From contig JAXDQU010000068.1 in NCBI GenBank assembly GCA_034667685.1, positions 1 to 42,078 on the forward strand: DNA of 42,078 nt, in the 5' to 3' direction. How positions within the stretch are numbered: the stretch's first letter is position 1; each line of letters starts with the position of its first letter. The notes beneath the pieces are model-generated. The model did not search any database, was not told where the DNA came from, and saw only the letters and a list, made by a program, of their open reading frames with translations. Both the position numbers and the translations under genes were made by a program. Origin of the DNA: Thermoplasmata archaeon. Lineage in GTDB: Archaea > Thermoplasmatota > SW-10-69-26 > JACQPN01 > JAJPHT01. Below are positions 6,788 to 32,012 of the stretch, in pieces.

Positions 6788-7079
6788 GCGCCGCGCAACC
6801 CCCCGCGGGGTCAAGAACGTGGGGGACGCCTTCAAGTGGAAAGCCCGCGCTGCGCGTCGCGGGAGCCTTCGGGCTTCCGCCGCGATGACGAAGAATTTTG
6901 ACTCCGACCCCAAACGTGACGAGTGATGGGCGAACGGAGCGGCTGATGGGCCAGCCTGGGCGCCGTCCCGTGCGTCGAGCGGGACGGCGTGGCGGGTTCT
7001 TCACTCGCGCGCCGCGGCCGCTCGTGGGCGTCGTGCCCATCGTGTGGGGGCATGCGCGGCGCTCCGTGCCGGGGCCGAC

Positions 7080-7625
7080 CTAGGGTGCCGTCGTGTTGTT
7101 CGTCGTGCTGTTGGTCGCGTTCGTCGGCGGCGTCGGCGTGGGCGCGGGCGTCGAGGACGCCGGCGTGCTCGGGGCGGGCGTGGAGCTGGCGGGCGTCGTC
7201 ACGACCTGCGTCTGCGTGATGACGAGCGTCTCGTGGACCACGGCGACCTCGGGGTGGCTGGGCAGGATCGCGCTCACGCGCACGTCGAGCGAGGCGTCAC
7301 CGTCGATGGCGCGCGCCGCGACGATGAGCTGCGCCTGGCCGTGGACGTCGACCGTCAGGATGTCGCCGGTGCGGTCCTTGACGGCCCACGTGTGCGCGCC
7401 CAGGATGTTGCCCGCCGCGTCCTTCACGAGCACCGTCACGTCGGGATCGCCCGATTGCGTCGTGGCGGTCGTGTCGACGCGAAGCTGCGTCGTGCCCGCG
7501 GGCACGTCCACGGGGAACGTGCGCTCGCTGCCGCCGGAAGGGGGCGCGGTCGACTGCTGGGTGTCGAGCGTGCAGCCTGCGAGCGCCACGGCAAGCAGAC
7601 AAGCCGAAAATGTCAGGGCCTTCAT
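7080..7625 (-). CDS. Lipoprotein with Pro/Thr/Ser/Asn-rich C-terminal tail
   Basis: MKALTFSACLLAVALAGC; TPASS repeats and NxS/T sequons at the C-terminus. Confidence 0.75.
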   Translation of the reverse strand: MKALTFSACLLAVALAGCTLDTQQSTAPPSGGSERTFPVDVPAGTTQLRVDTTATTQSGDPDVTVLVKDAAGNILGAHTWAVKDRTGDILTVDVHGQAQLIVAARAIDGDASLDVRVSAILPSHPEVAVVHETLVITQTQVVTTPASSTPAPSTPASSTPAPTPTPPTNATNSTTNNTTAP

Positions 7626-7663
7626 GGGGTCGGCTTGCGCTTGCCAGGCAAGCCGCTCGTGGC

Positions 7664-7803
7664 CTAGGATTCGATGCGCGGCGCCAGCAGGTAGGTCACA
7701 CGACCGAATCTGCGGATTCGGCCTATCACGTACCTGCTTCTGCCTCCGGTCGAATCCTTCGCTACGCTCAGGATTCGATCCTCGGCGCCAGCAGGTACGT
7801 GAC
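7664..7803 (-). repeat. 3'-end duplication cassette at PCNA (direct copy, antisense arm and hairpin)
   Basis: 7768-7803 vs 7664-7699 are 30/36 identical and both encode VTYLLAPRIES*; antisense arm 7726-7758; hairpin 7702-7723. Confidence 0.9.
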
Positions 7804-8502
7804 GTGACCATTTCCGCCCGCAAGGTCGAACTCGATCTTGACGGGGTAGTCGTTGCCGAGGTTCAGGTGGATGCCGGCGCTGCCCTTGGCGGCCTTCACC
7901 ATGTTGGCGAAGTAGTCGAGCGAGAAGAGCGACTTCGCCTTCTCGGTGGCCTTCAGCTCGGCGAGCATGCTCTTGTCGAGCTTGAGGTGCACCTGGTCGG
8001 TGTCGCCCTCGGCGAGCAGCTCGAAGGTGTCCTTGTCCGCGATGAGCGCGACGTGGTCCGCGATGGCCTCGGAGGCGCGGATGCCGCGCTCCAGCTCGCC
8101 CGGCGAGATCGTGACGTGCACGGGCAGGTCGAGCTTGGGGACCTTGGGGTCGTTCATGCCCGAGGTGTCCACGAGGCTCATGCGCCGCGTGACGTTGCCG
8201 ATCTTCATGACGAGGCGGTGGCCCGCGGGGTCGAAGTCCATCTCGACCTCGTCGTCGCCCGAGGCGAGCTTGAGCACTTCCTTGAACTTCTCCAGGTCGA
8301 GGCCCATCTCCATCGCGTCGGCCTTGTACTCCTGGAACGCGGCGCTGCGGAGGGTCAGCTCGACCATGGCGACGTGCGCCGGATCGACGGCCTTCAGCGA
8401 CAGGCCTTCCGACGCGACGTGCACCTTGACCTCGTCCACGAGCGTGGACGTGGCGTCGATGAGCGTCTTGAGAACGTCGGCCTTGCAGCGGGCGTGGAGC
8501 AT
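7768..8502 (-). CDS. pcn: DNA polymerase sliding clamp PCNA
   Basis: LKAVDPAHVAMV, FSLDYF, C-terminal YLLAPRIE; GAGGT RBS and TTTAAGT TATA-like element upstream. Confidence 0.97.
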   Translation of the reverse strand: MLHARCKADVLKTLIDATSTLVDEVKVHVASEGLSLKAVDPAHVAMVELTLRSAAFQEYKADAMEMGLDLEKFKEVLKLASGDDEVEMDFDPAGHRLVMKIGNVTRRMSLVDTSGMNDPKVPKLDLPVHVTISPGELERGIRASEAIADHVALIADKDTFELLAEGDTDQVHLKLDKSMLAELKATEKAKSLFSLDYFANMVKAAKGSAGIHLNLGNDYPVKIEFDLAGGNGHVTYLLAPRIES

Positions 8503-8625
8503 CGGACGACCTCGTAGGTTGCCCGAGCAATCCACCCCCTCGACTTAAACTCCTGCCCTGACGCCAGCGCCTCGACCGCTGCTTCCACTGGAAAATCCTT
8601 GGTGCCGGAGCGCCATGCCCCGCGC

Positions 8626-8988
8626 ATGGACCTGCGCTGGCGGGGCGGACTGGAGGATGCGCTCGCGCTGGCGCGCCTGCTCGCGGCCGGGCGCGACGTG
8701 ACGCTCGTGCCCGCGCCCGACGAGGTGGTGCCGGCCTTCCTCGTGCAGGCGCAGGCCGCGGCGCTGGCGCTCGCAACGAAGGAAGCTGGGGACGCAGGCT
8801 GGCGCGCGTTCGTCTGCGCCTCGCCGGAGAAGGACGACCTCGGCCGGTTCGTGGAGGAGACGCCGCCCGGCGCGCGGACGCTCGTGGTGGACGGCCCGCT
8901 CTTCGCGCGGCGCGTCGAGGTGGTCGCCGGCGACGTCGTCCCCTGGGGCGCGGGGTGGCGGCTGGCGCTCGACCTCAAGGGGTGCTGA
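8626..8988 (+). CDS. Hypothetical protein
   Basis: GC3-rich codon pattern; 3 nt gap to the next gene. Confidence 0.6.
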   Translation: MDLRWRGGLEDALALARLLAAGRDVTLVPAPDEVVPAFLVQAQAAALALATKEAGDAGWRAFVCASPEKDDLGRFVEETPPGARTLVVDGPLFARRVEVVAGDVVPWGAGWRLALDLKGC

Positions 8989-8991
8989 GCC

Positions 8992-9747
8992 GTGAGGGAG
9001 CCCGAGCTCGATCGCATCCGCCGGCAGATCGAGGCCGGCTTCGCCCAGGAGGGGTTCCCGATCACGCGGCCCGTCGCCATCGCGATCCGCAAGGACCTGC
9101 CGCCCGCCGCGACGACGTTCCGCGACGGCGAGCGCTTCGTCATCCTGGTGAGCGACCGCGCCGCGGAGAGCGACGACGTCGCGCTGCTCCTCGCGCACGA
9201 GCTGGGCCACGTCCAGCGCATGGACTCCGGGCACGCCTCGCACGACGACGACGCGATCACCGCGGCGTACGCGGCCATCGAGCCGCGCCTGCGCCACGAG
9301 TACGAGCGCAGGACGATCCACCACGCGATCAACTTCACGCAGGACCTCTACGCGGACCCGCTGAGCCTGCGCGTCGCGCGGCGCCTCGGCCTCGTGGCGC
9401 CCGGCGCGATCGAGGCGCTCATCGCCGGCTTCACCAACGACGAGCCCTACGAGATCGACGACCCGCTCGCGCGCCGCTGGGACCAGACCGAGGACATGGT
9501 GGGCAACGCCCGCGCCATCGCGCTCGCGCGCCTGGCCGACGCGCCCCAGGCCCGCGAGCGCGCGGAGCGGCGCCAGGGACGATATCTCGCCCGCATCGCG
9601 CCCGACATCGCGCGCGAGGCGCCGTGGTTCCAGGCGCGGCTCGACGACCTGCCCGAGGACGTCACGCGCGAGGCGTTCGCGCAACTGCTCGTGGAGTACG
9701 TGCGGCGCTTCGTCGCGACGGCCGGGCTCAGCGCGGACGGACGTTGA
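8992..9747 (+). CDS. HExxH metallopeptidase-like protein (DUF5781-like)
   Basis: LLAHELGHVQRMDSGHASH, QDLYAD. Confidence 0.7.
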   Translation: MREPELDRIRRQIEAGFAQEGFPITRPVAIAIRKDLPPAATTFRDGERFVILVSDRAAESDDVALLLAHELGHVQRMDSGHASHDDDAITAAYAAIEPRLRHEYERRTIHHAINFTQDLYADPLSLRVARRLGLVAPGAIEALIAGFTNDEPYEIDDPLARRWDQTEDMVGNARAIALARLADAPQARERAERRQGRYLARIAPDIAREAPWFQARLDDLPEDVTREAFAQLLVEYVRRFVATAGLSADGR

Positions 9748-10174
9748 GCGCGTCGAGGATGCCCTCGGCGAGCTTCGTCGCCGCGGGCGAAGGGCGCGTC
9801 TTGGGCACGGTGCGGTTCCACGCGGGGCGCGCGCCGGCGCGGTGCAGGTGCTCCTGGATGAGCGCGGCCTCCAGGCCGGGCACCTCCTCCGCCTTCTCGA
9901 CGACGACGTAGAGCACGTCGGCCTCGCCACCCGCGGCCTGGAACTCGGCCAGCGGGCGCTGGACGCCGTGCAGCACCGTCTTGCCCGCGCCCGCGGAGCC
10001 CAAGGCGTACGCGACGCGGCGGCGCAGGCTGCTGGAGAGGCCGACGTAGAGGACCTCGCCGAGCGTGTGCTCCGTGGCGCCCATCAGGCGGCAGACGAGG
10101 ACGTAGACGCCCGGCGCGTCCGGGACGTTGGGCAGCGTGCCGCCAAGGCGGACGTCTATCGGTATTCCCTCCAC
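9728..10174 (-). CDS. Stand-alone GIY-YIG nuclease
   Basis: PGVY...LYVGLSSSLRRR...LEAALIQ...PAWN carries the Tyr, Tyr, Arg, Glu, Asn set; the GTG start lies inside the duplicated TFS end. Confidence 0.78.
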   Translation of the reverse strand: MEGIPIDVRLGGTLPNVPDAPGVYVLVCRLMGATEHTLGEVLYVGLSSSLRRRVAYALGSAGAGKTVLHGVQRPLAEFQAAGGEADVLYVVVEKAEEVPGLEAALIQEHLHRAGARPAWNRTVPKTRPSPAATKLAEGILDALNVRPR

Positions 10175-10259
10175 TTCCGGCCGAAGCCGACTGTCACCGA
10201 AGCTTCGGCCTCAGTGTCGGGAAACCGGTTCGCTTCGCTCACCGGTATTCCCTCCACTT
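10156..10259 (-). repeat. 3'-end duplication cassette at TFS
   Basis: 10239-10259 vs 10156-10176 are 18/21 identical and both encode KWREYR*; antisense arm 10213-10229; hairpin 10179-10210. Confidence 0.9.
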
Positions 10260-10556
10260 GTGCCCGCACTTCGTGCATTCGAGGAAGCGCGTCGTGGCCT
10301 CATCCGCGCTGCGCGTCTGCCGCATGTAGTAGTACGCGGCGTGGTTGCCGCACTTCTCGCAGGCGTACTCGTTCGTCGTGGGGAGCAGGCTGACCTTCTC
10401 CATGCTCTCGACCATGACGGATTTCTTCTCGTCGATTACCTGCTTGCTGTGGACGACGTTCTCGCCCGCGACGGCCTTCTTCGTGTAGCCGCACTTGGGG
10501 CACGTCAGCACGCCGTTGACAGGCTTGAGCATCGCCTTGTCGTTCGGGCAGAACAT
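10239..10556 (-). CDS. tfs: Transcription factor S (TFS/RpoM)
   Basis: MFCPND...CPKCGY and CEKCGN...QTRSADE...CTKCGHKWREY, with the catalytic DE pair. Confidence 0.95.
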   Translation of the reverse strand: MFCPNDKAMLKPVNGVLTCPKCGYTKKAVAGENVVHSKQVIDEKKSVMVESMEKVSLLPTTNEYACEKCGNHAAYYYMRQTRSADEATTRFLECTKCGHKWREYR

Positions 10557-10640
10557 TGGCGAGCGCACGCGCGGTCTGGTTGAAAACGCTTCGCTCTGGA
10601 ACTTGCGGCGCCCGACGAGGGGTGCCGCAAGGCCGGGAAC

Positions 10641-10829
10641 GCGACGTGCAAGGTGTGCCGTGAACGTGAACGTTGAACGAACGCCGTGAACGAGAACGAC
10701 GCGGCGCCCACGTCTGGGCTAGATCTGGCCAGATCTAGCTGAGCCGCGGCGCCCTCGCGCCGTCGTTCACGTTCACGGCGTTCGTTCAACGTTCACGTTT
10801 CACGTCGGACGTTCCGCGTTGCACGTCGC
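10641..10829. repeat. Nested palindromic element built from GAACG units
   Basis: Outer IR 10641-10651/10819-10829; arms 10660-10701/10761-10803; central 22-bp palindrome 10718-10739. Confidence 0.85.
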
Positions 10830-10831
10830 CG

Positions 10832-12040
10832 CTAGTGCGAGTGCGGCAGGCTCTCCGGGTCCACGTAGGGCAGCACGGGCGGCGGGGCGTGGTCGTACAC
10901 GACGGTGACGTCCTCGACGGCCTCGCACTGCGCGCCTTGGCGCAGCGTGACGACGAGGTTGTACGTGGTGGCGGCGACGCGGCCGTTGGTGCTGGACGGA
11001 TTGCCCGTGGGGCCAGCGAGCGTGTCCTGCGTGGCGCCCTGCTCCTGGAGGTGCCATTCGCCGGCGCACGCGCTCGCGGGCTCGGTCTGGCCGGTGGGGC
11101 CGAGGTTCTGCGCGACGGGGTCGAGGAAGGTGACGTTGACGAACGCGGTGCCGTTGTAGTCCAGCTTGAACGCCTTCGTGTCGGAGGCCGCGACGCCCGC
11201 GGGCACGCCGTCCGCCTGCGGGGGCGCGCCGCTCGCGAGGGTCACGTTGAACGTGTTGTGGTACGTCGCGGGGAAGGGCGCGACGTAGATCGGGTAGTCC
11301 GCCTCGCCCATGCGGCCTTCGGCGTCGTGCACGATGACGACGACGCGGCTCCAGCCGTTGCCCGTGAGCGTGATCGTGCCCCGGTCGTTGGCGAGCGGCT
11401 GGAGCTTCACGGGCGCGTTCTGCGCGGAGAGCGTCGAGGTGTGCGGCTGGCTCCCGACGTTGTGGTACGTCACGACGGAGCCCGTGGGGATGGTGAGGTT
11501 CTCGGGCACGAAGCGGAAGTCGTGCGGCGTCGCGCCGTCCTCGACGTAGACGTCGTAGCGCGTGGGGCCCGCGAGGCCGTCGATGACGGTGACGTTGGCG
11601 CGCATCCACTGAAAGTGCGGATGGCAATGCATCTGGTAGACGCCGGGCACGCCGAACGTCAGCGAGCGGCTCTCGCCGGGCGGCATGTAGTCGTCCGCGC
11701 GCTTCGAGCCCGTGTCGAGCCCGGTCGCCTTCTGCGCGAGGGGCGCGGTGCCCAGCATCGGCCCCACGGCCCACGTCCACGTGAAGGGCGCCTTGCCCTC
11801 CGGGGGCAGCGCGGCCGCGACGTCCATCGTCGTGCCCGATTCGACCCAGGCGGGGATCGGGTTCACGGCCGTGATGCTCGTCGTGAGCATGGGGAGCGCC
11901 GGCGGGGGCGAGGCGGGCGCGTCGGGCGTCGGCGCGGGCGGGAGCGCCTCGCGCTGCTCGGGACCCCCGTCCCGGTGGAACGTCCCCACGCAGCCCGCCA
12001 GAAGGAGGGAGGCCGCGAGCAGGAGGAGTGCCGTGCGCAC
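10832..12040 (-). CDS. Blue-copper (cupredoxin) lipoprotein with PKD-like domain
   Basis: LLLAGC; YQMHCHPHFQWM type-1 copper motif; FVPENLTIPTGSVVTYHN...PHT. Confidence 0.8.
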   Translation of the reverse strand: MRTALLLLAASLLLAGCVGTFHRDGGPEQREALPPAPTPDAPASPPPALPMLTTSITAVNPIPAWVESGTTMDVAAALPPEGKAPFTWTWAVGPMLGTAPLAQKATGLDTGSKRADDYMPPGESRSLTFGVPGVYQMHCHPHFQWMRANVTVIDGLAGPTRYDVYVEDGATPHDFRFVPENLTIPTGSVVTYHNVGSQPHTSTLSAQNAPVKLQPLANDRGTITLTGNGWSRVVVIVHDAEGRMGEADYPIYVAPFPATYHNTFNVTLASGAPPQADGVPAGVAASDTKAFKLDYNGTAFVNVTFLDPVAQNLGPTGQTEPASACAGEWHLQEQGATQDTLAGPTGNPSSTNGRVAATTYNLVVTLRQGAQCEAVEDVTVVYDHAPPPVLPYVDPESLPHSH

Positions 12041-31881: not shown

Positions 31882-32012
31882 GCGATTCGGCCGAATCGCG
31901 TGCTTTGCAGCTAGTCGCGAGAGGCCGAACCGGAGTTCGGCCGAATTCCTCTCCTTGCGCCGTGCGCGGCGCTCGTCGGGTTCGGCCTCTCGCGACCCGT
32001 TCCGGGTCGCGA
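31882..32012. repeat. Cluster of TTCGGCCGAA-centred palindromes and inverted repeats
   Basis: Perfect 18-bp palindrome 31882-31899; near-palindrome 31932-31949; 18-bp IR 31914-31931/31979-31996. Confidence 0.75.

What the first reader, a model, noticed from the sequence alone, without database searches (positions are those of the whole stretch)
7664..10259. Same 3'-end duplication cassette with a gene-specific antisense arm at two unrelated core genes (PCNA and TFS)
Seen in sequence: in gene sense both loci read [last codons]-TGAGCGWAGCGAA-[imperfect antisense copy of those codons]-AGGCCGAA..hairpin..TTCGGYCG-[second direct copy of the last codons ending TAG]. The loop and hairpin motifs are shared, while the antisense arm and direct copy are specific to each gene. 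The stop codon in use (TGA) is the first triplet of the shared motif in both cases. Inference: a family of tiny elements, or integration-site scars, that target conserved gene ends, restore the reading frame and carry a target-matched arm. A constant scaffold with a variable target-complementary segment is what a guide- or template-directed insertion system would look like. I do not recognise a described element with this layout, although GCGAAGCGA-type loops recall REP-like palindromes.
Basis: partly seen in the sequence, partly recalled or inferred. Interest (0 to 1): 0.9.

Follow-up and report, generated by a model that had tools for sequence, protein, structure and literature searches.

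The report
Replacement gene-tail hairpin cassettes in archaeon
Two core genes of a soil archaeon carry a tiny inserted DNA cassette that supplies a new copy of the gene's last codons, a backwards copy of them and two very stable hairpins, pushing the original gene end downstream; dozens of such cassettes exist in this group of archaea and nothing known explains how they are made.

Summary
PCNA and TFS each end in A1 (last codons) - TGA-GCGNAGC-GAA cap - A' (imperfect antisense of A1) - GC-rich hairpin hp2 - A2 (second direct copy, own stop).

It is a family. The cap 13-mer occurs 53 times in 17 of 21 genomes of the class, against 5 for a reversed control. About 30 genes and 5 tRNA genes of this genome carry tail duplications.

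The cassettes are insertions. Empty alleles exist in congeners and in another soil metagenome.

The in-use tail A1 and the displaced tail A2 differ almost only synonymously (47 of 57 differing codons). A' follows A1 rather than A2 (24 against 3 informative sites). At one gene, the in-use tail is another species' allele.

My reading is a horizontally exchanged "replacement tail + antisense arm + hairpin" unit that inserts at the homologous gene end. It probably does so by recombination or strand annealing at the hairpins, using host enzymes.

The genome encodes no Y1/RAYT transposase, reverse transcriptase, IS110 transposase or TnpB.

A dedicated guide-directed enzyme system is not supported.

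This scan had already noted the phenomenon on other DNA of this genome and in other archaea.

The parts
7768..8502 (-). PCNA coding sequence (244 aa), ending in the cassette-supplied TGA at 7770..7768
   Evidence: 100% self match 7771-8502; C-terminus ...VTYLLAPRIES*.
7771..7803 (-). A1 of the PCNA cassette: the in-use last 11 codons (replacement tail)
   Evidence: A1 differs from A2 at 4 bases in 3 codons, all synonymous.
7758..7770 (-). Cap of the PCNA cassette: TGA stop plus a GCGTAGC mini-hairpin plus GAA
   Evidence: It fits the GCGNAGC mini-hairpin consensus. It forms the apical loop in both folds.
7725..7757 (-). A' of the PCNA cassette: imperfect antisense copy of A1
   Evidence: 26 of 33 aligned positions identical to A1. 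In the masked alignment it agrees with A1 at 3 of the 4 informative sites where A1 and A2 differ.
7701..7724 (-). hp2 of the PCNA cassette: GC-rich palindromic hairpin of the GGCCGAA...TTCGG family with a CGCA apex
7664..7699 (-). A2 of the PCNA cassette plus its TAG: the displaced resident tail, silent
   Evidence: A2 carries the GTG ACC ... CGC codons of the nearest relative G003; a contig of run X3 joins 7697 to 7802, skipping exactly 104 nt, which is an empty allele aligned on the A2 copy.
10239..10568 (-). TFS (transcription factor S) coding sequence, ending in the cassette-supplied TGA at 10241..10239
   Evidence...CGHKWREYR*.
10242..10259 (-). A1 of the TFS cassette: the in-use last 6 codons
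10229..10241 (-). Cap of the TFS cassette: TGA plus a GCGAAGC mini-hairpin plus GAA
10212..10228 (-). A' of the TFS cassette: antisense arm
   Evidence: 15 of 17 aligned positions identical to A1. The orthologous arm in G003:C15 differs by 1 nt.
10178..10211 (-). hp2 of the TFS cassette: 9-bp GGCCGAAGC/GCTTCGGCC stem with a larger loop
   Evidence: The orthologous cassette of G003 carries a different hp2 at this place.
10156..10176 (-). A2 of the TFS cassette plus its TAG: the displaced resident tail
   Evidence: Its CGA codon matches the empty allele G003:C28, where the stop overlaps the next gene's ATG.

Best explanation
Both loci are copies of a lineage-wide family of non-coding 'replacement-tail hairpin cassettes'.

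**What each cassette is.** Each is a pure insertion at a fixed coordinate p. That coordinate lies inside the last codons of a conserved gene, or in the T-loop of a tRNA gene. The inserted DNA has four parts:
1. A working copy of the gene tail, from p to a stop codon.
2. Usually a d(GCGNAGC) mini-hairpin cap, whose flanking TGA serves as the stop.
3. An antisense copy of the first 8-67 nt of that same tail.
4. A GC-rich palindromic hairpin with a GNA-type apex, drawn from an interspersed REP-like family.

The resident tail, from p onwards, is displaced downstream and left unused.

**Shown**
- The insertion status and the anatomy.
- The class-wide spread.
- The in-use and displaced tails are different functional alleles.
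- The antisense arm goes with the in-use tail.

**Inferred**
- The unit [tail - A' - hp2] is passed between related genomes. It enters at the homologous gene tail by host recombination. This could be Campbell-type crossover of a looped-out circle, or strand annealing in which A' pairs with the resident sense strand so that the end of hp2 abuts position p.
- The long hairpin A'-hp2-tail-start and the nuclease-resistant mini-hairpins set the joint.
- The very first copy at each gene was probably made by fold-back template switching at the mini-hairpins.
- No element-encoded enzyme is needed.
For: **Family**
- The cap 13-mer occurs 7 times in G000. It occurs 53 times in 17 of 21 class genomes, against 5 for the reversed control.
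- The same architecture is seen in relatives at LSm, an EF-1alpha-like gene, a P1-like gene, TFS and tRNA-Met, tRNA-Ser and tRNA-Pro.
- In G000 it is seen at RadA, AhcY and 5 tRNA genes.
- Genome-wide, 34 of 2669 gene calls have a direct copy of their last 40 nt within 300 nt downstream, against 3 in a shuffled control.

**Insertion with empty alleles**
- PCNA: cassette in 4 of 20 loci (G000, G002, G004, and G008 with two in tandem); the other 16 are empty.
- TFS: cassette in 4 of 10 loci.
- RadA: empty in G001, G002 and G003. G003 keeps the downstream synteny.
- A contig of run X3 skips exactly 104 nt at PCNA.

**Same p at one gene in different genera**
- PCNA: 5 of 5 cassette copies. TFS: 4 of 4 genomes.

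**Two alleles**
- Over 20 tail pairs and 251 aligned codons, 57 codons differ: 47 synonymously and 10 not. Seven of those 10 are in one diverged pair.
- The differences include AGG/CGC, AGT/TCG and AGC/TCG.
- The PCNA and TFS A2 copies carry the codons of the empty alleles.
- At AhcY the in-use tail is the G002-type allele. The upstream gene and the displaced tail are G003-like.

**A' goes with A1**
- In a masked alignment, A' agrees with A1 at 24 sites, with A2 at 3 and with neither at 1.

**Hairpins**
- The cap fits the GCGNAGC/GCGNNAGC mini-hairpin DNA, which resists 3' exonuclease (passages read).

**No transposase or RT families**
- PF01797, PF00078, PF01548 and PF07282 give no hit in the own genome.
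Against: - **No intermediate seen.** No circle, free unit or donor molecule was observed, so the integration step is inferred from anatomy alone.
- **RadA does not fit simply.** Both tail copies are nearly identical (2 synonymous differences in 71 nt) and both are far from the nearest relative's tail. A simple 'foreign A1, resident A2' reading does not explain this without a further step.
- **Some cassettes fit an older arm or an in-situ duplication equally well.** Several have identical A1 and A2 but a degenerate A' (C84; G004 PCNA).
- **The origin of A' at a new gene is unexplained.**
- **Other insert families** are flanked by tail duplications without a clear antisense arm (C81, C79:66530 and C13).
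- **Alignment bias.** Searches showed that the 'A' follows A1' count depends on which copy is used for the alignment. Only the masked version is fair. It rests on 28 sites from 9 cassettes, some with low alignment scores.
- **Data quality.** Gene calls are my own crude GC3-based calls. All genomes are metagenome bins.
Confidence: 0.5

Rival explanations
1. In-situ miniature inverted triplication. A replication fold-back or template-switch event at two hairpin-forming sequences copies the resident tail forwards, backwards and forwards again, like ODIRA or short template-switch mutations. Later, arm-to-arm (quasi-palindrome) correction between A' and A1 recodes the in-use tail. Selection lets only synonymous changes through. 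No foreign DNA is involved.
For: - The direct-inverted-direct order, with a hairpin at each turn, is exactly the topology of inverted triplications (abstract read).
- Template switching is documented to create and repair hairpin stems (abstract and introduction read).
- Some cassettes have identical A1 and A2 and a perfect short A' (tRNA-Leu at C61 and C118:55587).
- A' shows alternating perfect and scrambled blocks (RadA), as patchy conversion would give.
- The in-use tails carry odd low-GC3 codons while the displaced tails look native.
- No mobile-element enzyme was found.
Against: - ODIRA junctions form at inverted repeats already present in the locus. The empty alleles have neither cap nor hp2.
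- The same 13-mer cap recurs at unrelated genes and across a class, which needs a shared source.
- At AhcY the in-use tail is the allele of another species (G002), and there it stands alone without A', hp2 or a second tail.
- The cassette at one gene starts at the same codon in different genera and shares arm-specific mismatches. This points to common descent or transfer rather than repeated de novo events.
Confidence: 0.2
2. REP/REPIN-, MITE- or PATE-type transposition. hp2, with or without the cap, is a non-autonomous palindromic transposon moved by a transposase encoded elsewhere. Its insertion makes unusually long target-site duplications.
For: - hp2 is an interspersed GC-rich palindrome with family variants and compensatory stem changes.
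- It is exchanged between orthologous cassettes.
- It forms BIME-like tandem arrays in non-coding DNA of G002.
- Earlier notes of this scan reached a REP/MITE-like reading for hairpin repeats of this genome.
Against: - The duplication length runs from about 15 to more than 160 nt within one family. A transposase gives a fixed length.
- The two copies are different alleles.
- A target-specific inverted copy is not a product of known transposition.
- No Y1/RAYT, IS110 or TnpB family hit was found in a 99%-complete genome.
- No GTAG or CGTC tag is seen next to the hp2 copies listed.
Confidence: 0.07
3. Scars of site-specific integrative elements. Viruses or plasmids with a tyrosine integrase integrated into gene 3' ends carrying a replacement tail (as phage e14 and phage 21 do at icd, or islands do at tRNA genes). 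They later lost their interior, leaving attL and attR a few dozen bases apart.
For: - The targets are the classical ones: tRNA 3' halves and 3' ends of conserved protein genes.
- The direct repeat ends exactly at the gene end.
- The in-use tail is element-like and the displaced tail is native.
Against: - No cargo or integrase lies between the repeats at any of the loci examined.
- A search for hp2-preceded repeats up to 60 kb apart found no kilobase-scale version (it used exact 14-mers only).
- The same cap and hp2 flank many different targets. That would require one element family with dozens of att specificities.
- Repeat length varies.
- The antisense arm has no counterpart in att sites.
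Confidence: 0.05
4. A programmable, guide-directed insertion system. A constant scaffold carries a variable target-complementary segment, which an RNA- or DNA-guided recombinase, nuclease or reverse transcriptase uses to choose the site.
For: - There are constant modules plus a gene-specific complementary arm.
- The 3' end of the arm coincides exactly with the start of the displaced tail at every cassette. The arm therefore does mark the joint.
Against: - No RVT_1, IS110 DEDD or TnpB hit in the genome, and no Rfam family at the cassettes.
- The arm always sits beside its own sense copy, and is imperfect (about 75-95% identical).
- The 'scaffold' parts are dispensable or swapped: the cap is absent at C72 and in G008 TFS, and hp2 is replaced between G000 and G003.
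Confidence: 0.05

Closest known systems
Integrative elements that carry a replacement 3' end of their target gene (prophage e14 and phage 21 at icd of E. coli; genomic islands at tRNA genes). Recalled from my own knowledge; one search gave only a listing of papers that mention e14 and icd.
   Same: The gene stays intact because the incoming DNA brings its own copy of the gene tail. The native tail is displaced downstream as a silent direct repeat that differs mainly at synonymous sites. The targets are tRNA 3' halves and the ends of conserved protein genes.
   Different: Here the whole insert is about 70-250 bp with no integrase and no cargo. The repeat length is not fixed. An antisense copy of the tail start and two hairpins sit between the copies. 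One cap and hp2 family serves many different genes.
REP / REPIN / BIME and MITE-type palindromic repeats of bacteria (PMC3733652 and PMC3184786, seen as search listings and abstract starts only)
   Same: hp2 is a short, GC-rich, interspersed palindromic hairpin with family variants. It is mostly found just downstream of genes and sometimes in tandem arrays.
   Different: There is no RAYT or other transposase in the genome. No GTAG or CGTC tag is present. The copies are flanked by long, allele-different direct repeats of the gene tail plus a locus-specific inverted copy.
[quoted passage not shown]
   Same: The order is direct - inverted - direct, with a hairpin-capable palindrome at each turn. 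The products are integrated by homologous recombination. No dedicated enzyme is required.
   Different: ODIRA units are kilobases long, contain a replication origin, and turn at inverted repeats already present in the locus. Here the units are 15-170 nt. The turn-round sequences are absent from empty alleles and are shared between unrelated genes. The outer copies are different alleles.
Mini-hairpin DNA d(GCGNAGC)/d(GCGNNAGC) (PMC13037366, passages read)
   Same: The cap core is GCG-N-AGC with every N seen (A, T, G, C). One copy has GCGTTAGC. The apex of hp2 is a CGCA/GNA-type turn.
   Different: The motif is known as a structural and nuclease-resistant element at phage replication origins and in engineered oligonucleotides. 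It is not known as part of a gene-end cassette.
C-terminal displacement at polymorphic toxin loci (rhs, CDI).
   Same: A new 3' end is recombined in ahead of the old one, which remains as a silent 'orphan' downstream.
   Different: Those systems swap functionally different toxin tips with their immunity genes. Here the tails encode the same C-terminus of housekeeping proteins and tRNAs, and the join carries hairpins and an antisense arm.

Membership tests
REP/REPIN-RAYT | Short GC-rich palindromic repeat, interspersed and mostly extragenic | tested here: met
   hp2 copies and variants.
REP/REPIN-RAYT | RAYT (Y1 HUH transposase, PF01797) encoded in the genome | tested here: not met
   0 hits in the 99%-complete genome. 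The control genomes rang in 6 of 14.
REP/REPIN-RAYT | Conserved GTAG or CGTC tetranucleotide at one end of the palindrome | tested here: not met
   By inspection of the hp2 copies listed, the flanks read ..GA(T/C)-A-GGCCG...CGGCC-G-T(G). No formal scan was run.
MITE | Terminal inverted repeats plus a target-site duplication of fixed length | tested here: not met
   The direct repeats range from 14 to more than 161 nt, and the copies are different alleles.
IS200/IS605-derived PATE or omega-RNA element | TnpA (PF01797) or TnpB (PF07282) partner in the genome | tested here: not met
   no hits.
IS110/IS1111 bridge-RNA elements | DEDD transposase (PF01548) | tested here: not met
   no hit.
Retroelement-made insertion (group II intron, DGR, retron) | Reverse transcriptase (PF00078) | tested here: not met
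   no hit.
Integrase-borne integrative element (att scar / CIME) | Replacement gene tail upstream and displaced native tail downstream | tested here: met
Integrase-borne integrative element (att scar / CIME) | Integrase and cargo between the repeats, or full-length relatives with the same ends | tested here: not met
   The inserts are 70-250 bp. No kilobase-scale pair was found in the own genome with exact 14-mers. Relatives were not searched for this.
ODIRA-type inverted triplication | Direct - inverted - direct copies joined at hairpin-capable palindromes | tested here: met
ODIRA-type inverted triplication | Junctions at short inverted repeats pre-existing in the unrearranged locus | tested here: not met
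   The empty alleles of PCNA, TFS and RadA lack cap and hp2.
Mini-hairpin DNA motif | GCGNAGC or GCGNNAGC core | tested here: met
   against the consensus quoted.
Any Rfam RNA family | Covariance-model match | tested here: not met
   the only hit in 7000-11000 is a sub-threshold CRISPR-DR29 match at 10046-10120, outside the cassettes.

The most novel reading that the evidence does not exclude
The cassettes are a previously undescribed kind of selfish, enzyme-free mobile unit. Each is a 'self-addressed' gene tail that carries an antisense copy of its own first bases next to a nuclease-resistant hairpin. After transfer as single-stranded or looped-out DNA, the antisense arm pairs with the homologous gene of a new host. 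This fixes the joint at one base. The unit is installed in front of the resident tail, which is kept as a silent spare. If so, this is homology- and antisense-addressed insertion that works on core genes across a whole archaeal class, and, per earlier notes of this scan, perhaps in DPANN archaea too.
Probability: 0.3. Interest if true: 0.85.

Novelty: new variant of a known kind. Interest (0 to 1): 0.7.

Why it matters
- **A new way of changing core genes.** If the reading holds, essential genes of these archaea are routinely re-tipped by tiny structured DNA units. The genes affected include PCNA, TFS, RadA, LSm, an EF-1alpha-like gene, AhcY and tRNAs. The units move between species without any enzyme of their own.
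- **Silent displaced tails as a record.** This would be a new route of gene-end exchange, and it leaves a built-in record of past alleles.
- **A design rule that can be tested.** The unit is tail + antisense of the tail start + mini-hairpin. That could be tried as a marker-free knock-in substrate.
- **Practical warnings for annotation.** Stop codons at these genes are element-borne. Short direct repeats at gene ends in such genomes are not assembly errors, and assemblers break at them.

Tried and rejected
- **Broad pattern scans.** I scanned the viral and all-prokaryote collections for the cap followed within 8-38 nt by the hp2 start. This gave 27 and at least 119 stretches. I examined the 110 pattern matches found in loci L096-L202, and only 2 had stem complementarity around the cap. 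My own estimate is that a 19-20-base pattern is expected by chance tens of times in 596 Gb. The hits say nothing about spread.
- **First attempts to list cassettes.** Exact triple seeds or loose hairpin patterns drowned in GC-rich and collagen-like repeats. I used only the stricter lists.
- **Long-range search for kilobase-scale elements with the same ends.** Nothing convincing was found. It used exact 14-mers only, so diverged pairs would be missed.
- **Sliding divergence and GC3 along PCNA.** There is no clear foreign tract. The only feature is a small cluster of 4 non-GC3 codons just upstream of A1.
- **The 'A' follows A1' count.** When A' was aligned on A1 the count was 28:2. When aligned on A2 it was 11:11. 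I rejected both as biased and replaced them with the masked alignment.
- **Sequencing runs.** No RNA holder was listed. Expression, 3' ends and small RNAs could therefore not be examined.
- **Coverage of the PCNA cassette.** No listed contig spans 7756-7864.
- **Rfam.** Nothing was found at the cassettes.
- **Ideas considered and dropped without a dedicated test:**
  - Bulge-helix-bulge intron, read-through or SECIS-like reading. The distance between tail copies is not a multiple of 3 in 4 of 5 PCNA cassettes.
  - Integron attC site.
  - K-turn.
  - Rep-Arvir rolling-circle origins. Passages of PMC13107129 read show no link.
- **Supplements.** Paper supplements were not opened.


Full report
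**1.

In gene sense (minus strand) the PCNA gene ends with 11 codons, A1 (7803..7771). These are followed in order by:
- TGA (7770..7768);
- a 10-nt loop motif (7767..7758);
- a 33-nt imperfect antisense copy of A1, called A' (7757..7725);
- a 24-nt GC-rich hairpin, hp2 (7724..7701);
- one base, then a second direct copy of the 11 codons, A2 (7699..7667), ending in TAG (7666..7664).

TFS has the same order:
- A1 10259..10242, TGA 10241..10239, loop 10238..10229;
- A' 10228..10212, hp2 10211..10178;
- A2 10176..10159, TAG 10158..10156.

Both stretches fold into two hairpins, A1:A' closed by the loop motif, then hp2. The z-scores are -4.3 to -5.6. None of 200 shuffles folds as well, whether as DNA or as RNA.

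The 13-mer TGAGCGWAGCGAA occurs 7 times in the 3.48-Mb, 71% G+C genome. The reversed control occurs once.

Contigs of two public runs from two studies span the TFS cassette without a difference. Contigs of the same two runs cover the A'-hp2-A2 side of the PCNA cassette. No listed contig spans 7756-7864.

**2. It is a family, in this genome and across a class**

All 7 copies of the 13-mer in the genome are flanked by locus-specific inverted complementarity.
- Five of them (PCNA, TFS, RadA on C76, C19, C84) also have a second hairpin and a downstream direct copy.
- C15 has a long-form hp2 but no recognisable second copy.
- The copy behind tRNA-Leu(CAA) on C108 has neither.

With other loop variants, the same architecture stands behind tRNA-Gln, tRNA-Leu(UAA), tRNA-Val and tRNA-Ile. 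There the direct repeat ends exactly at the tRNA 3' end.

I made a crude GC3-based gene call (2756 calls). Of the 2669 gene ends that could be tested, 34 have a direct copy of their last 40 nt within 300 nt downstream at score 14 or more. A control with shuffled pairing gave 3. Nine gene ends also have an inverted copy, against 0 in the control.

Across 21 genomes of the same class, TGAGCGNAGCGAA occurs 53 times in 17 genomes. The reversed pattern occurs 5 times. Among the 30 loci fetched, the full architecture is seen at:
- LSm (G010), an EF-1alpha-like gene (G007), a P1-like gene (G006) and TFS (G003, G005);
- a gene also hit in G000 (G004, in tandem);
- tRNA-Met (G009), tRNA-Ser (G016) and tRNA-Pro (G010).

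I did not test that.

**3. The cassettes are insertions, and the same gene is hit at the same codon in different genera**

*PCNA.* Of 20 loci, 4 carry a cassette: G000, G002 and G004 of the same genus, and G008 of another genus. G008 has two cassettes in tandem and therefore three tail copies. The other 16 loci are empty, including G003, whose PCNA is 97% identical to the query. All 5 cassette copies start the duplication at the same Val codon. Their second hairpins differ between genomes.

*TFS.* Of 10 loci, 4 carry a cassette.
- G000 and G003:C15 are orthologous. The arm differs by 1 nt, but hp2 is replaced by a different family member.
- G008 has no cap.
- G005 has a tandem with another hairpin.
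- The empty loci include G003:C28, where the TFS stop overlaps the start of the next gene.
- G004 may hold a degenerate remnant, which I did not count.

*RadA.* A 71-nt duplication is present in G000. G001, G002 and G003 are empty. In G003 the downstream synteny is conserved and the locus is about 170 nt shorter.

*Population data.* In run X3, from another study, one contig joins 7697 to 7802. It skips exactly 104 nt, which is one period of the PCNA cassette. It has 82 nt on the shorter side. This is an empty PCNA allele with the same downstream flank, aligned on the A2 copy.

**4. Rules of the anatomy**

Long duplications show what is essential.
- At C72 the duplicated tail is more than 161 nt. 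There is no cap, and A' (27 nt) is the antisense of the START of the duplicated tail. It is placed right after the stop and right before hp2.
- At AhcY (C78) the in-use tail is 20 codons long. It is followed by a 16-nt antisense copy of its first bases, then hp2, then the resident tail from the homologous position.

Every cassette therefore reads:
- resident gene up to p;
- a working tail from p to a stop;
- an optional cap;
- the antisense of the first 8-67 nt of that tail;
- hp2;
- the resident tail from p.

The 3' end of A' always coincides with the start of the displaced tail. When the tail is short, A' covers all of it, and the stop lies in the apical loop.

In G002, units of [X - small hairpins - X' - hp2] are also repeated in tandem in non-coding DNA.

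**5. The two tail copies are different functional alleles, and the arm belongs to the in-use copy**

Over 20 tail pairs of G000, covering 251 aligned codons, 57 codons differ.
- 47 differ synonymously and 10 do not.
- Seven of the 10 lie in one diverged pair (C12:55307).
- Two more lie at the left boundary.
- The differences include multi-step synonymous pairs such as AGG/CGC, AGA/CGC and AGC/TCG, and AGT/TCG at LSm.

A silent copy decaying in place would not look like this.

The displaced copies of PCNA and TFS carry the codons seen in the empty alleles.

At AhcY the case is clear-cut.
- The upstream gene and the displaced tail are G003-like.
- The in-use tail is low in GC3, has internal hairpins and has its stop in a hairpin loop.
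- That tail is the allele type of G002, where it stands alone with no A', hp2 or second tail.

I then looked at sites where the two copies differ and that the arm covers, using an alignment in which those sites were masked. The arm agrees with the in-use copy at 24 sites, with the displaced copy at 3 and with neither at 1. Unmasked alignments were biased either way.

In relatives, each PCNA arm likewise carries the private synonymous variants of its own genome's in-use tail. The G000 and G004 arms also share the same departure from their tails. This suggests common descent of the PCNA cassette.

Against a simple 'foreign in-use tail, resident displaced tail' picture:
- The two RadA copies are nearly identical and both are far from G003.
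- Some cassettes have identical copies but a degenerate arm (C84; G004).

**6. What the constant parts are**

The cap core is GCG-N-AGC with all four N, and in one case GCGTTAGC. This is the consensus of 'mini-hairpin DNA', GCGNAGC/GCGNNAGC. That motif has two G-C pairs and a sheared G-A pair. It is extraordinarily stable and resistant to 3' exonuclease (PMC13037366, passages read).

The flanking TGA...GAA could continue the stem as T-A plus two G.A pairs. That is my inference.

hp2 has a conserved CGAAC-CGCA-GTTCG-like core with a GNA-type apex. Its outer stem varies with compensatory changes between copies and genomes. It comes in short and long (branched) forms. It behaves as an interspersed REP-like module and is exchanged even between orthologous cassettes.

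No Rfam family matches the cassettes.

The own genome is 99% complete. It gives no hit to:
- PF01797 (Y1 transposase/RAYT);
- PF00078 (reverse transcriptase);
- PF01548 (IS110);
- PF07282 (TnpB).

Control genomes did give hits. Mobile genes can be missing from bins.

**7. Most likely mechanism**

Shown:
- pure insertion at a fixed coordinate;
- a working replacement tail that is a different allele from the displaced one;
- an antisense arm tied to the replacement tail and ending exactly at the joint;
- two nuclease-resistant hairpins at the turns;
- tandem copies and empty alleles;
- class-wide spread.

Inferred:
- The unit [tail - A' - hp2] moves between related genomes and is installed at the homologous gene tail by host recombination.
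- Two routes fit the anatomy. In the first, recombination between the two tail copies loops out a circle, and the circle re-enters another genome by a Campbell-type crossover near the tail start. In the second, an incoming strand is trimmed back to the exonuclease-resistant hp2. Its arm A' pairs with the resident sense strand, so that the 3' end of hp2 abuts position p and is joined there.
- Either route explains why the joint lies at the end of the arm, why the same codon is used in different genera, why repeated entry gives tandems, and why the displaced tail looks like a fresh native allele.
- The first copy at a new gene is not explained. Fold-back template switching at the mini-hairpins is the best candidate.

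I put 0.5 on this overall reading. I put more on 'inserted replacement-tail cassettes exchanged between lineages' and less on the exact joining step.

The rivals, with their evidence, are given in their own section:
- in-situ inverted triplication with later arm-to-arm correction (0.2);
- REP/MITE-type transposition (0.07);
- integrase scars (0.05);
- a dedicated guide-directed system (0.05).

**8. Comparison with what is known, and novelty**

- It works most like integrative elements that bring a replacement gene end (recalled: e14 and phage 21 at icd, islands at tRNA genes). It has no integrase, cargo or fixed att core.
- hp2 resembles REP/BIME repeats, but RAYT and the GTAG/CGTC tag are missing.
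- The direct-inverted-direct order resembles ODIRA triplications, but the turn-round sequences are not pre-existing in empty alleles.

Five literature searches returned no title or abstract start describing gene-end cassettes of this kind. I judged this from listings only. The library lacks most subscription journals, and supplements were not opened.

This scan had already met the phenomenon:
- on another piece of this genome, at rps10 and a FadB-like gene, read there as allele swapping;
- in other archaea, at asnS, tRNA-Glu and a surface-protein gene.

I tested the allele-difference claim here and it holds. I did not check the other genomes.

I rate the finding as a new variant of known kinds, combining gene-end displacement with palindromic repeats. 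There is a real chance that it is a new kind of enzyme-free, self-addressed mobile unit.

**9. Limits**

- The gene calls are my own.
- The counts depend on thresholds and on 19 gene ends picked by eye from the list, plus one of three added by coordinate; the other two (on C12 and C79) were not picked up.
- No RNA data were available.
- No intermediate of the proposed mechanism has been seen.

Noticed in passing
window 31889-31990: An intergenic cluster of hp2-type palindromes. A short GGCCGAAC..GTTCGGCC form and a long branched form are nested or adjacent on both strands, with no obvious gene-tail duplication.
   Followed up: no
window 10156-10176 and ORF 9728-10174 (minus strand): In the empty allele G003:C28 the TFS stop overlaps the ATG of the next gene (ATGA). 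In G000 that ATG reads ATA, and the only in-frame start listed (GTG at 10174) lies inside the displaced tail A2. The displaced tail may therefore now carry the start of the downstream gene.
   Followed up: partly
window 7804-7830 (PCNA, just upstream of A1): A cluster of four non-G/C-ending codons (CTT, GGA, AAT, GGT) sits in a gene whose other codons almost all end in G or C. Relatives have G/C-ending codons here. It is either a possible left edge of imported DNA or a local mutational footprint.
   Followed up: partly
G003:C15 (L002) and G003:C28 (L022): G003 holds two TFS-plus-downstream-gene loci, one with the cassette (86% identity) and one empty (93% identity). The bin has about 6% contamination, so these may be two strains rather than paralogues.
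   Followed up: no
L052 (G002, downstream of the orthologue of the C72 gene): A tandem array of units [X - small GNA-capped hairpins - X' - AGGACGAA..TTCGTCCG hairpin] lies in non-coding DNA. The zig-zag unit can therefore amplify without any gene tail.
   Followed up: no
G000 C81:30289-31662 end, C122:~8514, C13:12829 end, C79:66530 end: Other hairpin insert families also sit between two allele-different copies of a gene tail, without a clear antisense arm. One of them has a shared core of about 80 nt at C81 and C122.
   Followed up: partly
G000 C92:~5600, C34:~121732, C118:~81311: Perfect 10-22-bp hairpins include the stop codon in the stem. They are capped by GCGAAGC or GCGCAGC. In two cases they are followed by the same repeat of about 120 nt. 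No second tail copy was seen.
   Followed up: partly
window 10046-10120 (minus strand): A sub-threshold Rfam match to CRISPR-DR29 (26.9 bits against a gathering score of 39, E = 0.01) lies inside the ORF downstream of TFS. It is most likely chance.
   Followed up: no
window 7756-7864 in runs X1 and X2: The listed contigs of the public runs stop on either side of the A1-cap region of the PCNA cassette. This is as expected if assemblers break at the duplicated tail.
   Followed up: no
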